Source: Aplysia californica
Taxonomy: Eukaryota
Length of the DNA: 64,000 nt
Direction: 5' to 3'
Assembly: GCF_000002075.1 (NCBI RefSeq)
Contig: NW_004798452.1
Span: 91,226-155,225, forward strand
Of this stretch, positions 5,152 through 9,000 are shown one piece after another. A program made the translations under genes and the position numbers. The notes below the pieces were generated by a model. It had not been told where the DNA came from. It ran no database searches and saw nothing but the letters and a program-made list of their open reading frames with translations. The stretch's first letter is position 1. Each line of letters opens with the position of its first letter.

Positions 5152-8100
5152 ATGGGAATGTACCACAACAGAAGTATATGGTGTACAGGCGGTGGTGTGT
5201 TGTGTATCGCCAGCTTCCTGTTCGGCATCTTCCCCAGCTTGCCGATCAGTGTGGCAAAGGCTGTGGATGTGACATTTATTCCGAAGAACATTTTGATCTT
5301 TGGCGGTAAGTAGTCTCATAATACTAGAAGACCTCACAGAGATTTTTTTAACTCACTGTTAACATTCTTTTTAAAATTTTTAATTTTTACCATTCCAAGT
5401 TACTTTGTAATCATGAGTTCAGGTCTTATCTTTTGGTGGACAAATTCCTGTTTTAATAATTTGGTATGTAAAGAAATGGGGTTCGACAGAACAAAAATTC
5501 CATAAGATTGAGGAAAAAACAACTTTGTGGGTAGTAGGCCCGACTGGTAAAAAAGCATTGGCAAAGCAAAAGGAGATAAAGTGTAATATATATATGTTAG
5601 TGGAATAAATGGAGTTTGTTTCCTTGACAAAATTAGTTCTCATTTTGTGTGTATTTATTTTGTTTATTTAATTACTCTTCACCTGCACTACATTATTCAT
5701 AGTAAATCAGTATTATATATGGGCTCAGACTTCATGAAGAAGTGCATAAATGTGGAATGAACGTGACACTGAAATTTTGATATTTGTCCTTCACTTTCTC
5801 CCTGGTAAAGGAAATATCATCAGATGCACTCTATTATTATAAAATGTTCAGCTGGATACCCTGAGACTTTTGTGAAGATTGCGGATGACGAAGAAGATTA
5901 TAAACCTGAAACTACCACATTTTACTGACTCAATGTTTTAATTTCTGTTCAGGAAATGGTTTCATCGGAAGCAGCACTGCGGAGCGCCTCATCGCTGCAG
6001 GTCATAAACTGACCTTGGTCAATCGCGGCAACTGGTACTGGGACACAGGGTTCTACGTTCAGCCGCACGTGCAGCACATCATGTGTGACAGGATGCAAGC
6101 GGTGAGTTATTTCACAAAACCCAACTCATGCAAGGTACAAGAACGGGATGGAAAATTTCGGCTCAGGGGATAGGAATTTTTGTAGATTTTTGAAAGAGGA
6201 AGAAATAATAAGTTCCAAAACTGACAGCCTAAATTTGTACTTTGGACAAAAAAGTCATCTTCAGGCTCATACTTTGCAATAGTTATGCTCAGTTTTTGTC
6301 TCAGAAAAGGGAAGAAAGAGAAGTAGACTTATACCTTGTGTACTCTGACAATAACATTAATTCTTTTGATTTAGGCGAGAACAGACAGATTTTAAAAAAT
6401 TAATGGGGCTGTTTGTTTTTCAAGGTCATGAGTAAAATTAGTCGTATTGTGCCAAAATTGTAGCTTTTGCCCCATCCATGAAAAGAAAATGTAGCTGTCC
6501 TGACTCAACTTGATGGAACCAATTTGGAGTGTGTACTGGGTATTAAACTGCAGTTCACTGCGAGTCCACTTGATGATGGCTACTCTTTGCCAGAGATGGA
6601 TGAGTTCTGCAGTAATATATTGATAAGAGGTAGTTAAATAGTAAACCACTATAAGATTGCCTCTTGTATAAATTTGAATGGCATCATAATTCTTTTTGTC
6701 AGTTCAAATTTTCATTTGAATTATTGGATACCGCGCTTTGTTCTGCATATTTTATTCTGTTAATTTTTTTAAACCTAAATTGGGGGATGTATGATTAATT
6801 GGAAACCGAAAATATATGTTATGACGCAATGGAATCTGGCGCTTGTCAATTTCTGGGCAAAAGAAGTTATTGGTACCATCTTAAAGCTTGTTCATAATTT
6901 GTCTTGCTTTTAATATACAAATATCTGAGATCGGTAAACTCCAAAGACTAAGTGTCCTTGGAAACTGCAAATTTATATTTTTTTGTGGCTTTGATTAACA
7001 TTTTTCAATAAAATCTATTCAGAAATGTGTTTTTAAATGGATGTAAAATATGTTGAGCAAAAAAAAAGAAAATTCGAACAAAATTGCCCAACAGCCAGGA
7101 AAATGCTGGTTTCTTCGATTTCATTATTTTGACGAGCACCTGATTTCACCACAATGCCTCACATATGTAGATGATGTTGATGTTTTGGCTAACTTGTGAC
7201 CTCCCCATCTAGGCCAGCAAATGCTCTGGTTTGGTCGACTTTGTGTACTACAGTGACAAGATCGACGCCGTGGTCGACTTTAGCGCCTACCACCCTCAGT
7301 CAGTGGCAGATACTCTCAGCGCGCTGGGCGGGAAAGTCCGGCTCTACATATACATCAGCACCGACTCTGTGTATGAGGTAAGGTCTGAAATTTCTTTATG
7401 TTCTGTCACACTCTATGGAACATTACAGCAACTGCAGCAAACCTGCACTTATCACTTCTTGGTAATGGACAGAAGGGCGAGGGCACAGCTGTTGCGGGAT
7501 TGATAACAACAACAACAACAACAGCAACTTTATATTCTTACAGGGGATGCTCTGGACACAGTTTTAATTATTTGTCGTTGTACACACTTAGAAGGAAATA
7601 TTGGCCCAACTCAAGGCAGGGAGATCCAAAACCTACGGGAGCCTGGAGGACCTGACTGTGACGAACCGTAGCATTCGCACCAGAGAAAGGGATGTCCATT
7701 TAAAGATGAACAAGAAGCTTTGTATTGACAGTGTTTTTCTTTTATTTTAAAATCATATTGAAAACAAACTATTCTATGGCATTTCAATTTGAAATGTCAG
7801 CAAAACTTTTAATTTGATCGCTGGCATCACATGTGTAATCCTTTAGTCTTTTAGGGTTAAGATCGTAGCAGTAATTGAAGAATAACTTGAGTAGTTTCTG
7901 AAACTTTAATTCTTTAGACCGGATATTTTTTTAAATGAGAGGAGCTATATATGAGAATGATACTGAAAAAGTTTAAGCTTTCTATAATTTGACTGCTGGT
8001 AATTACTCGACGTGGGCCATTATCTTCAAGCCTCTTTCAGAAAAATCCCAAGCATTCACTTTTCATGTTGAGATCCTTTTTCAGGAACCACTCTTAGTAT

Positions 8101-9000
8101 CATATTTTTAGCTCTCCAGGTAGAATTTTGGGTTAAGGGTTAAGAATAGTGTATGTTACATTTTGTTTTTATTTCGTGCTGCAGACTTGTTTGTACCCAC
8201 CCTTTAAATAATGAAATAACTTCTTTTTTTAGGTGTCTGCCAAGAACCATACAGAACCTTCACTGGAAAGTGATGCAGTTCGACCATCTTCAGAGGAGAA
8301 GCAGAAAGAATTTGCCGCCCAGGAGAGCTACGGTCACCGCAAACTTGAGTGCGAAGAAATTCTCGCCGACTACAGACAGAACAAGTACGGTCCTCCGTAT
8401 GTCTCACTCCGACTCCCCGATGTGTTCGGGCAACGCGACAACACCTACAGATGGTGGATTTATCAGCTGTGGATGAAACTACGCCCGTATCTCGAGAAAG
8501 ACATTGTTGTCCCTTCAGAGCTGGAGAAGAAGCCGATCAGTTTAGTGTACGTCAACGACGTTGCAGACTTGATCACCCAACTTGTGGAGCATGTCCCTCC
8601 CGAGGCCATCGATCAGGCCTTCAATTTGGCATTGGAGGAAACTCCGAGTCTCATGGAAATTCTACAAGACATTAGGAGTGAACTGAACCTGCCAGACTTG
8701 AAAATTGTCCTGGACAACAAACCGGATACTATCCGTCTGTTTCCATCAGTTCATCAAGGCCCTGTGGATATATCCAAGGCTCGGAAGGTCTTGAACTGGC
8801 AACCGACGGAGTGGAAAAAAGCTGTTAAGGAAACTGTGAAGTTCTACGAGTCAGCGATCCGCACAGTGCATTTTGATAAGGCAAGAAAGGAAATGATTCG
8901 TACAATGCAGACATACTTTACGTCAAAACCATACAATGTTATTCGAGGTCTCCGAGACATTTATGGACTGAATTATCCTGAGCCGAGGGATGAACTGTAA
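5152..9000 (+). CDS. Extended/atypical SDR (NAD(P)-dependent epimerase/dehydratase family) with signal peptide and C-terminal RDEL, 411 aa, 4 coding exons
   Basis: Exons 5152-5305, 5953-6101, 7213-7377 and 8233-9000 join in frame with GT-AG introns (1236 nt). The Rossmann motif KNILIFG|GNGFIG (GxxGxxG) is split by intron 1. Also present: DAVVDFS, YIYISTDSVY, catalytic YGHRK (YxxxK), LRLPDVFG, AFNL and DISKARKVLNWQP. The protein ends EPRDEL-stop. Confidence 0.9.
6813..7168. mobile_element. Degenerate MITE; related right end at ~54760-54870
   Basis: Inverted ends ATATGT..GACGCA..GGAATCTGGCGCTTGTCAA / TTGACGAGCACCTGATTTC..GCCTCACATAT. Confidence 0.45.

What the first reader, a model, noticed from the sequence alone, without database searches (positions are those of the whole stretch)
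5152..9000. Putative soluble ER-luminal SDR oxidoreductase/epimerase (signal peptide + RDEL)
Seen in sequence: the spliced protein begins MGMYHNRSIWCTGGGVLCIASFLFGIFPSLPISVAKA|VDV (basic n-region, hydrophobic core, A-x-A cleavage motif), which the ORF track misses. It continues with an intact extended-SDR fold (GGNGFIG, IST, YGHRK) and ends in RDEL-stop. Established: KDEL/HDEL/RDEL are ER-retrieval signals; most extended SDRs are cytosolic or organellar, and few soluble nicotinamide-dependent enzymes reside in the ER lumen (H6PD is the classic NADPH source). Inference: Arg rather than Asp/Glu after beta-2 (LVNRGN) suggests NADP(H) preference, so this could be an uncharacterised consumer of luminal NADPH or a luminal sugar-nucleotide/glycan-modifying enzyme. 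I recognise no vertebrate orthologue; it resembles the CSP41-like atypical SDRs.
Basis: partly seen in the sequence, partly recalled or inferred. Interest (0 to 1): 0.72.

Follow-up and report, generated by a model that had tools for sequence, protein, structure and literature searches.

The report
Uncharacterised ER-lumen SDR enzyme family
This sea-slug gene encodes an enzyme-like protein of the short-chain dehydrogenase family whose secretory signal, ER-return tail and cysteine pair recur in many invertebrate and some protist relatives, so it likely works inside the endoplasmic reticulum, where it is predicted to use NADPH to reduce a still unidentified small molecule.

Summary
Observation confirmed. 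Four coding exons give a 411-aa protein ending RDEL, identical to an Aplysia californica RefSeq protein mislabelled 'CSP41b'. All three coding introns are spliced in 5 of 5 contig runs. A non-coding first exon and an in-frame stop fix the signal-peptide start. Of 130 close homologues, 127 end in an xDEL-like tail. Among 93 diverse full-length relatives, 48 have signal plus tail and 31 have neither. A Cys96/Cys105 pair occurs in 47 of those 48 and 1 of those 31: separate support for a luminal disulfide, though only 4 tree-independent contrasts exist (p=0.125). The fold is extended-SDR-like with an intact Thr-Tyr-Lys triad (unlike CSP41) and Arg76 after beta-2 (NADP-type). It lacks the ~17-residue substrate loop and the Arg-Asp motif of NDP-sugar epimerases. 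Aplysia also encodes a signal-bearing H6PD, a luminal NADPH source. Best reading: a soluble ER-luminal NADP(H) carbonyl oxidoreductase from an old eukaryotic family that also has cytosolic members. Localisation, cofactor and substrate are all untested. No vertebrate member was seen; absence is not proven.

The parts
3487..3814 (+). non-coding first exon (5' UTR; start approximate)
   Evidence: contigs of X2 (3561-3813, joined to 5093/5094) and X5 (3487-3813); GTAAGT donor at 3815
5094..5305 (+). exon 2: end of 5' UTR with in-frame TGA 5131-5133, ATG 5152, signal peptide and beta-1
5152..5262 (+). predicted cleavable signal peptide, aa 1-37 (hydrophobic core about aa 16-27; A35-K36-A37 | V38)
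   Evidence: hydropathy; A|V[DE] after a hydrophobic stretch recurs in gastropod orthologues; cleavage site inferred, SignalP not run
5953..6101 (+). exon 3: Gly-rich motif, beta-2 with R76 (6024-6026), WYWD loop, C96 (6084-6086), D97, R98
7213..7377 (+). exon 4: C105 (7222-7224), invariant D123, short beta4-beta5 link, S150-T151-D152-S153 (T151 at 7360-7362 is the predicted catalytic Ser/Thr)
8233..9000 (+). coding part of exon 5: Y189 (8329-8331), K193 (8341-8343), RLPD, DNTYRWWIYQLW, C-terminal substrate domain, extra C-terminal helices, stop
8986..8997 (+). RDEL ER-retrieval signal, directly before TAA
   Evidence: K/R/HDEL in 95 of 130 and xDEL-like tails in 127 of 130 homologues
9001..11485 (+). 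3' UTR, about 2.5 kb, AATAAA at 11469
   Evidence: X15 contig 8231-11485

Best explanation
The gene encodes a short-chain dehydrogenase/reductase with a predicted cleavable signal peptide and an RDEL tail, likely a soluble ER-lumen resident, predicted to act as an NADP(H)-dependent oxidoreductase that would reduce a small carbonyl substrate with luminal NADPH. Shown: gene structure, splicing, start and stop, conserved signal-like N-terminus and xDEL tail, SDR fold of the model, intact T151/Y189/K193, and an H6PD-type gene in the same genome. Inferred from SDR and KDEL-receptor knowledge: import, cleavage after A37, retrieval from the Golgi, a C96-C105 disulfide, NADP(H) binding through R76, and hydride transfer with Y189 as acid/base. 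Inferred more weakly: the reductive direction, and a small polar substrate, probably sugar-like, held in a pocket of conserved Asp/Glu, Arg and Trp/Tyr residues. The substrate probably exists in both cytosol and ER, because signal-less relatives keep the same residues.
For: Targeting: 127 of 130 close homologues have an xDEL-like end. In 259 full-length proteins (of 353 examined), signal+tail 180, signal only 23, tail only 19, neither 37. In 93 representatives at 50% identity the split is 48/9/5/31, Fisher p=1.1e-11. C96+C105 occur in 47 of 48 ER-type and 1 of 31 signal-less members (motif-based recount 45 of 48 vs 3 of 31). Mean Cys count is 3.9 vs 8.9. RDEL is a major retrieval signal (PMC8248988, passages). 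Catalysis: T/S151 in 89 of 93, Y189 in 88, K193 in 90, G51/G52 in 93, R76 in 91. A basic residue after beta-2 dictates NADP(H) and an acidic one NAD(H) (PMC2792337, passages). The model has pLDDT 90.4 and matches extended SDRs at Z 22.8-28.2 with no stand-out. NADPH source: a second G6PD-family gene with a signal-like N-terminus, G6PD_N, and G6PD_C fused to 6-phosphogluconolactonase. Four of 9 bacterial hits (one gene family) carry a long C-terminal extension, confirmed as aldo-keto reductase for the one that was scanned.
Against: No localisation, binding or activity data. The signal-peptide call is a hydropathy rule, not SignalP. Trait correlations are inflated by kinship: only 4 tree-independent pairs for Cys pair vs ER type (median p 0.125) and 5 for signal vs tail (median p 0.25). 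N-glycosylation sequons are not enriched in ER-type members (1.54 vs 1.71 per protein). The best structural matches are NDP-sugar epimerases and dehydratases, not simple reductases. Whether H6PD and this family co-occur across taxa was not tested.
Confidence: 0.55

Rival explanations
1. A luminal nucleotide-sugar or glycan-modifying enzyme (epimerase, dehydratase or 4-keto-sugar reductase) acting on UDP- or GDP-sugars imported into the ER, comparable to UDP-xylose synthase.
For: All top sequence and fold matches are NDP-sugar enzymes. D152 after the catalytic Thr sits where dTDP-sugar dehydratases and RmlD-type reductases have an Asp (motifs recalled). Weak Pfam RmlD_sub_bind hit, E=1e-6.
Against: The D123-Y155 segment is 32 residues against 49 in the 6dnt epimerase, so the substrate loop and the Asn-bearing helix start are missing. 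'RD' in RD(Y/F)(V/I)YV is replaced by 'IS', and RY(A/F)N by RLPD. S153 stands where dehydratases have their Glu base (recalled). The motif points to NADP rather than tightly bound NAD+. A 4-keto-NDP-sugar reductase overlaps with the best explanation and is not excluded.
Confidence: 0.2
2. A non-catalytic NADP(H) sensor or regulatory subunit in the ER lumen, like NmrA/HSCARG or MAT2B, possibly switched by the C96-C105 disulfide next to D97-R98.
For: SDR-fold redox sensors exist (PMC2792337, passages). The family lacks the canonical substrate loop. It carries extra C-terminal helices (aa 368-400) outside the span of most structural matches.
Against: The triad and many pocket residues (E168, R173, E197, D219, D225, R229, W236, P327) are kept in 83-93 of 93 distant relatives, in both compartments. 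That pattern fits an enzyme.
Confidence: 0.12
3. A luminal dehydrogenase that makes NAD(P)H by oxidising a sugar or alcohol, so a second source beside H6PD rather than a consumer.
For: Same motifs; SDR reactions are reversible; some carriers (diatoms, dinoflagellates) were not checked for H6PD.
Against: Aplysia has an H6PD-type gene. In mammals the luminal NADP pool is described as reduced (PMC11204020, start of abstract in listing), which favours reduction.
Confidence: 0.1
4. Not ER-luminal: the N-terminus is a membrane anchor or another organelle signal and RDEL is incidental, or the protein is a CSP41-like RNA-binding protein as RefSeq names it.
For: The N-terminal extension is long (37 aa). 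The RefSeq name and ESM Atlas structure neighbours include CSP41 clusters at TM 0.66-0.67.
Against: Tail conserved in 127 of 130 homologues and tied to signal and Cys pair. Many orthologues have short typical signals of about 20-25 residues. CSP41 is a chloroplast protein of cyanobacterial origin (PMC4047790) lacking SDR active-site residues (PMC2792337). Bacterial clusters match as well or better (TM 0.68-0.69).
Confidence: 0.03

Closest known systems
Extended SDR NDP-sugar enzymes (GalE, dTDP-glucose 4,6-dehydratase RmlB 1g1a, UDP-GlcA 4-epimerase 6zl6, human UDP-xylose synthase 4gll)
   Same: Rossmann fold plus C-terminal substrate domain, GxxGxxG, Ser/Thr-Tyr-Lys triad; Z 25-28, rmsd 2.5-3.0 A over about 280-290 residues
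   Different: 14-23% identity; loop about 17 residues shorter; no RD motif; Arg instead of Asp after beta-2; soluble with signal peptide and xDEL. UXS1 is a membrane-anchored luminal enzyme (recalled).
Uncharacterised bacterial 'NAD-dependent epimerase/dehydratase family' proteins (the group recalled as CDD SDR_a1, cd05265; not tested)
   Same: Nearest non-eukaryotic relatives: 25% identity over 244 aa, E=1e-16 to L025. Same short beta4-beta5 link, D..Y.P, S.SVY, YG..K..CE and G..D.T.R..W motifs. Top ESM Atlas neighbours.
   Different: The 55 eukaryotic rows form one side of a 98% SH-aLRT branch against 6 bacterial rows (long branches). They add WYWD, STDS, RLPD and C-terminal helices, plus ER signals in most animal members.
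Plant CSP41a/b (source of the RefSeq name)
   Same: SDR-like fold; TM 0.66-0.67 between predicted models
   Different: Chloroplast RNA-binding protein or endoribonuclease without the classical active site. This family keeps the triad and has ER signals. No CSP41 sequence was aligned directly.
ER-luminal pyridine-nucleotide enzymes: H6PD, 11beta-HSD1, FOXRED2/ERFAD
   Same: Compartment and probable NADP(H) use. FOXRED2 is a KEEL-bearing ER protein (PMC2140024, one passage).
   Different: Different folds or SDR class: 11beta-HSD1 is a membrane-anchored classical SDR and FOXRED2 a flavoprotein (both recalled). No match to them came up in the structure searches.

Membership tests
Soluble ER-resident (KDEL-receptor client) protein | N-terminal cleavable signal peptide | tested here: met
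   Hydrophobic core and AxA, start fixed by RNA contigs, conserved in homologues; heuristic only, SignalP not available
Soluble ER-resident (KDEL-receptor client) protein | C-terminal K/H/RDEL | tested here: met
   RDEL-stop; K/R/HDEL in 95 of 130 homologues
Soluble ER-resident (KDEL-receptor client) protein | No transmembrane segment in the mature chain | tested here: met
   19-residue hydropathy above 1.6 only for windows starting at aa 8-17
Soluble ER-resident (KDEL-receptor client) protein | Observed ER localisation, lost on tail deletion | not testable with these tools
   needs cell work
SDR superfamily | Rossmann fold with Gly-rich motif | tested here: met
   Pfam Epimerase E=6e-17, above cut-off; fold search Z up to 28.2
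SDR superfamily | Ser/Thr plus YxxxK | tested here: met
   T/S151 89 of 93, Y189 88 of 93, K193 90 of 93
Extended SDR (strict motif table of PMC2792337) | [ST]GxxGxxG cofactor motif | tested here: not met
   F-GGNGFIG; a hydrophobic residue precedes the first Gly in the listed homologues
Extended SDR (strict motif table of PMC2792337) | Additional C-terminal domain of about 100 residues | tested here: met
   aligned through aa ~365-380 with extended SDRs
NDP-sugar epimerase/dehydratase (GalE, RmlB type) | beta4-alpha4 substrate loop with active-site Asn, and RD diphosphate-binding motif | tested here: not met
   segment 32 vs 49 residues (6dnt); RD replaced by IS; N of RY.N replaced by D; roles of these residues recalled; all NCBIfam scores far below cut-offs
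NDP-sugar epimerase/dehydratase (GalE, RmlB type) | Acidic residue after beta-2 (NAD-specific) | tested here: not met
   N75 (64) or S (23), then R76 (91), of 93
CSP41 | Loss of classical SDR active-site residues | tested here: not met
   triad intact vs PMC2792337 passage
CSP41 | Chloroplast targeting, photosynthetic host | tested here: not met
   animal protein with ER-type signals
CSP41 | RNA binding or cleavage | not testable with these tools
   needs assay
CDD atypical SDR subgroup 1 (SDR_a1, cd05265; recalled) | Match to the CDD profile | not testable with these tools
   CDD is not held; the paper search found nothing relevant; motif likeness to bacterial L025 only

The most novel reading that the evidence does not exclude
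An old, undescribed eukaryotic SDR family is a soluble NADPH-consuming reductase of the ER lumen in most invertebrate phyla and some protists. It has moved between cytosol and ER several times, gaining or losing signal peptide, xDEL tail and one disulfide together, and seems lost in vertebrates. The disulfide flanks the cofactor-binding D97-R98 and could tie luminal NADPH use to thiol redox.
Probability: 0.4. Interest if true: 0.8.

Novelty: new variant of a known kind. Interest (0 to 1): 0.62.

Why it matters
[quoted passage not shown] Aplysia has an H6PD-type luminal NADPH source. This family offers a concrete, soluble, expressible candidate consumer outside vertebrates. It comes with natural cytosolic counterparts (for example the ER and cytosolic paralogues of Ridgeia) for finding the substrate and for studying how an enzyme adapts to the lumen. 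It also corrects a misleading 'chloroplastic CSP41b' annotation carried by animal genes.

Tried and rejected
Longer N-terminus or other first coding exon: rejected (non-coding exon 1, in-frame stop); one X15 contig has 77 unplaced bases before 5094, possibly an alternative 5' exon. Cytosolic paralogue in Aplysia: two own-genome searches (last exon; Ridgeia signal-less P0148) returned only this locus, 4 candidates each; these are lower bounds. Sequon enrichment in ER-type members: none. Informative fusions among 26 long or odd homologues: only MatE (P0131) and Peptidase_C48 (P0298), probably merged gene models; the Symbiodinium record named 'C35C5.3' holds only the SDR domain. Fold search for a specific function: flat Z 22.8-28.2, no stand-out. 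Pattern scan of prokaryotic genomes: 2 weak loci; L004 is a 3-kb contig whose match comes in separate pieces, probably eukaryotic contamination. Profile search of 201 genomes of one phylum: 9 hits at E<=1e-15. Run search: no RNA holder on record among indexed runs; raw-read runs X22-X24 did not cover the coding exons. Literature: ten searches, including six accessions or locus ids (0 papers), showed no paper on this family; subscription journals and supplements were not covered. Earlier scan findings: nothing by sequence or place. No complex prediction was run, as no binding claim is made.
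Full report
Gene. The four coding exons are 5152-5305, 5953-6101, 7213-7377 and 8233-9000 on the + strand, all with GT-AG ends. They give a 411-aa protein ending RDEL-stop. All three coding joints are present in contigs of 5 of 5 contig runs laid; the 3 raw-read runs had almost no depth over the coding exons. One contig (X2) joins a non-coding exon ending at 3814 to the acceptor at 5094, and an in-frame TGA at 5131-5133 precedes the ATG, so the hydrophobic N-terminus is the true start. 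The message ends near 11485. The last exon is 100% identical to P0001, Aplysia californica XP_005112150.1, named 'chloroplast stem-loop binding protein of 41 kDa b, chloroplastic'. Two own-genome searches found no second locus (lower bounds).

Targeting. The only 19-residue hydrophobic windows start at aa 8-17, and A35-K36-A37 precedes V38. SignalP could not be run, so 'signal' below means a 9-residue Kyte-Doolittle mean of at least 1.9 in an extension of at least 20 residues before the Gly motif. Of the 130 proteins from the first two searches (55 of 55 shown; the best 120 of 425), 95 end K/R/HDEL and 127 end in an xDEL-like tail. RDEL is a major KDEL-receptor signal (PMC8248988, passages); KEEL and HEEL tails occur on ER-localised human proteins (PMC2140024, one passage). 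The profile search of 50%-identity representatives found 347 proteins at E<=1e-30, of which the best 150 were listed. It brought in members that begin directly at beta-1 and lack the tail. Of 353 proteins examined (39 ids listed by the first two cluster look-ups left out as near-duplicates), 259 were full length: signal+tail 180, signal only 23, tail only 19, neither 37. Among the 93 full-length representatives the split was 48/9/5/31, p=1.1e-11. Many tail-only rows look like truncated starts. A third trait follows: C96 and C105 occur together in 47 of 48 ER-type and 1 of 31 signal-less members (45 of 48 vs 3 of 31 by an alignment-light motif count). Signal-less members carry more cysteines overall (8.9 vs 3.9). 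This fits a luminal disulfide and loss of free thiols. Against this reading: kinship inflates these tests. Only 4 and 5 independent contrasts lie on well-supported branches (median p 0.125 and 0.25), sequons are not enriched (1.54 vs 1.71), and the disulfide geometry could not be checked.

Range. Named ER-type members come from gastropods, bivalves, cephalopods, annelids, a brachiopod, a nemertean, hemichordates, amphioxus, a scorpion, copepods, Artemia, barnacles, Nematostella, the diatom Attheya and the dinoflagellate Amoebophrya. Named signal-less members come from Ridgeia (which also has an ER paralogue), Amphibalanus (likewise), Protostelium and Symbiodinium. No named hit was a vertebrate, insect, nematode, fungus or land plant. 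The lists were cut (120 of 425, 120 of 198, 150 of 347) and most rows have no name, so absence is not shown. In a 61-row tree the 55 eukaryotic rows are separated from 6 bacterial rows (98% SH-aLRT, long branches). Signal-less protist rows branch first (85%, weak), and signal-less animal-like rows sit inside the ER group at several places. A FastTree of 79 rows needs at least 7 changes of state. A cytosolic origin, one move into the ER and several returns is the simplest reading, but the backbone is poorly resolved and no topology test was run.

Chemistry. The model (pLDDT 90.4, pTM 0.85) matches extended SDRs evenly, Z 22.8-28.2 over the 50 rows shown, led by NDP-sugar dehydratases and epimerases at 14-22% identity. 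The fold therefore names no function. In 93 representatives: G51 and G52 93; N/S75 87; R76 91; R98 93; D123 93; T/S151 89; D152 89; S153 86; Y155 93; Y189 88; K193 90; E197 93; D219 88; D225 90; R229 92; W236 83; P327 92. A basic residue after beta-2 without an acidic one marks NADP(H) use, and CSP41 lacks the classical active-site residues (PMC2792337, passages). The RefSeq name therefore does not fit. Against the 6dnt and 4zrm epimerases, the stretch from D123 to Y155 is 32 residues instead of 49 (6dnt), RD before (Y/F)(V/I)YV is replaced by IS, and RY(A/F)N by RLPD. From recall, those elements bind the nucleotide sugar and supply the active-site Asn. The same short link is in the nearest bacterial proteins (L025: 25% over 244 aa), which I recall as CDD group SDR_a1; that assignment could not be tested. 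Four of 9 bacterial hits, one gene family, have a long C-terminal extension that Pfam calls aldo-keto reductase in the one scanned. This is a weak hint of carbonyl reduction.

Cofactor supply. Besides a multi-exon G6PD, the genome has a second G6PD-family gene. One exon has a signal-like start (MTMRLTANLTSFLFLMLLYPSAST) and G6PD_N, and a 559-codon frame has G6PD_C fused to 6-phosphogluconolactonase. That is the H6PD architecture (recalled); the two exons were linked by position, not by RNA. A review states that H6PD makes ER NADPH, that this pool drives 11beta-HSD, and that whether reductases use NADPH in the lumen remains unknown (PMC9114485, passages).

Mechanism and verdict. The most likely course is import by the signal peptide, cleavage after A37, a C96-C105 disulfide, and retrieval by RDEL. 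NADPH would then bind through the Gly motif and R76, and a small carbonyl substrate would be reduced with T151/Y189/K193. Because cytosolic relatives keep the same pocket, the substrate is more likely a metabolite found on both sides of the membrane than a luminal protein glycan. I put ER-luminal residence at about 0.88, active NADP(H) enzyme at about 0.7, and the full statement at 0.55. Rivals are an NDP-sugar enzyme (0.2), a non-catalytic sensor (0.12), an NADPH-producing dehydrogenase (0.1) and non-ER or CSP41-like (0.03). It is an SDR by membership, works like an extended or atypical SDR reductase, and fails membership tests for GalE/RmlB-type epimerases and for CSP41. Ten paper searches showed no description of the family. 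I read passages of five papers (PMC2792337, PMC9114485, PMC2140024, PMC4047790, PMC8248988) and only search listings of the rest. No supplements were read, and proteomic tables there could list members. Novelty: new variant of a known kind. Interest 0.62.

Noticed in passing
L006:607-2286 (-) and L012:2459-3202 (-); G000:C457 about 579600-584200: H6PD-type gene in Aplysia: exon with signal-like start and G6PD_N, plus a single 559-codon frame with G6PD_C fused to 6-phosphogluconolactonase; separate from a multi-exon G6PD on C164.
   Followed up: partly
proteins P0353, P0198, P0170 vs P0184, P0160 (trees): The diatom Attheya and an MMETSP protein group with copepod members at 99% support, not with other protists; gene transfer, contamination or tree artefact.
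   Followed up: no
P0148/P0277 and P0086 (Ridgeia); P0200 and P0362 (Amphibalanus): Single animal species carry both an ER-type and a signal-less paralogue. A C158/C196 pair shows the opposite trend to C96/C105 (9 of 48 ER-type vs 23 of 31 signal-less).
   Followed up: partly
L020-L022, L024, L026: Bacterial relatives with a long C-terminal extension (aldo-keto reductase by Pfam in L022), directly downstream of a ~500-aa frame with no Pfam hit that looks like an SDR tail fused to a zinc-ADH-like region (by eye).
   Followed up: partly
L027:997-2271 (-): Bacterial relative with a twin-arginine-like leader (MRTTRRELIRLG...), suggesting export also occurs among bacterial relatives; judged by eye.
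   Followed up: no
L004 (3124-bp contig of a Gammaproteobacteria MAG): The match to this family comes in separate pieces and other frames look eukaryotic; probably contamination in the MAG.
   Followed up: partly
window 16549-17115 (-): Exon of a neighbouring Nup54 gene (Pfam PF13874, E=8e-20); contigs at 13007-13457 may be its 3' part.
   Followed up: partly
window 48072-49597 (-): Short exon-like frames resembling TBCK kinase by recall; the one scanned (49076-49597) had no Pfam hit.
   Followed up: partly
window about 4390-4565: Tandem array of about five ~36-bp units in intron 1.
   Followed up: no
window about 6865-7165, 75-440 and 11980-12490: High-copy transcribed repeats, one inside coding intron 2, attract very deep contig and read coverage unrelated to this gene.
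   Followed up: no
window 9175: 6-bp insertion allele in the 3' UTR in 4 of 5 contig runs.
   Followed up: no
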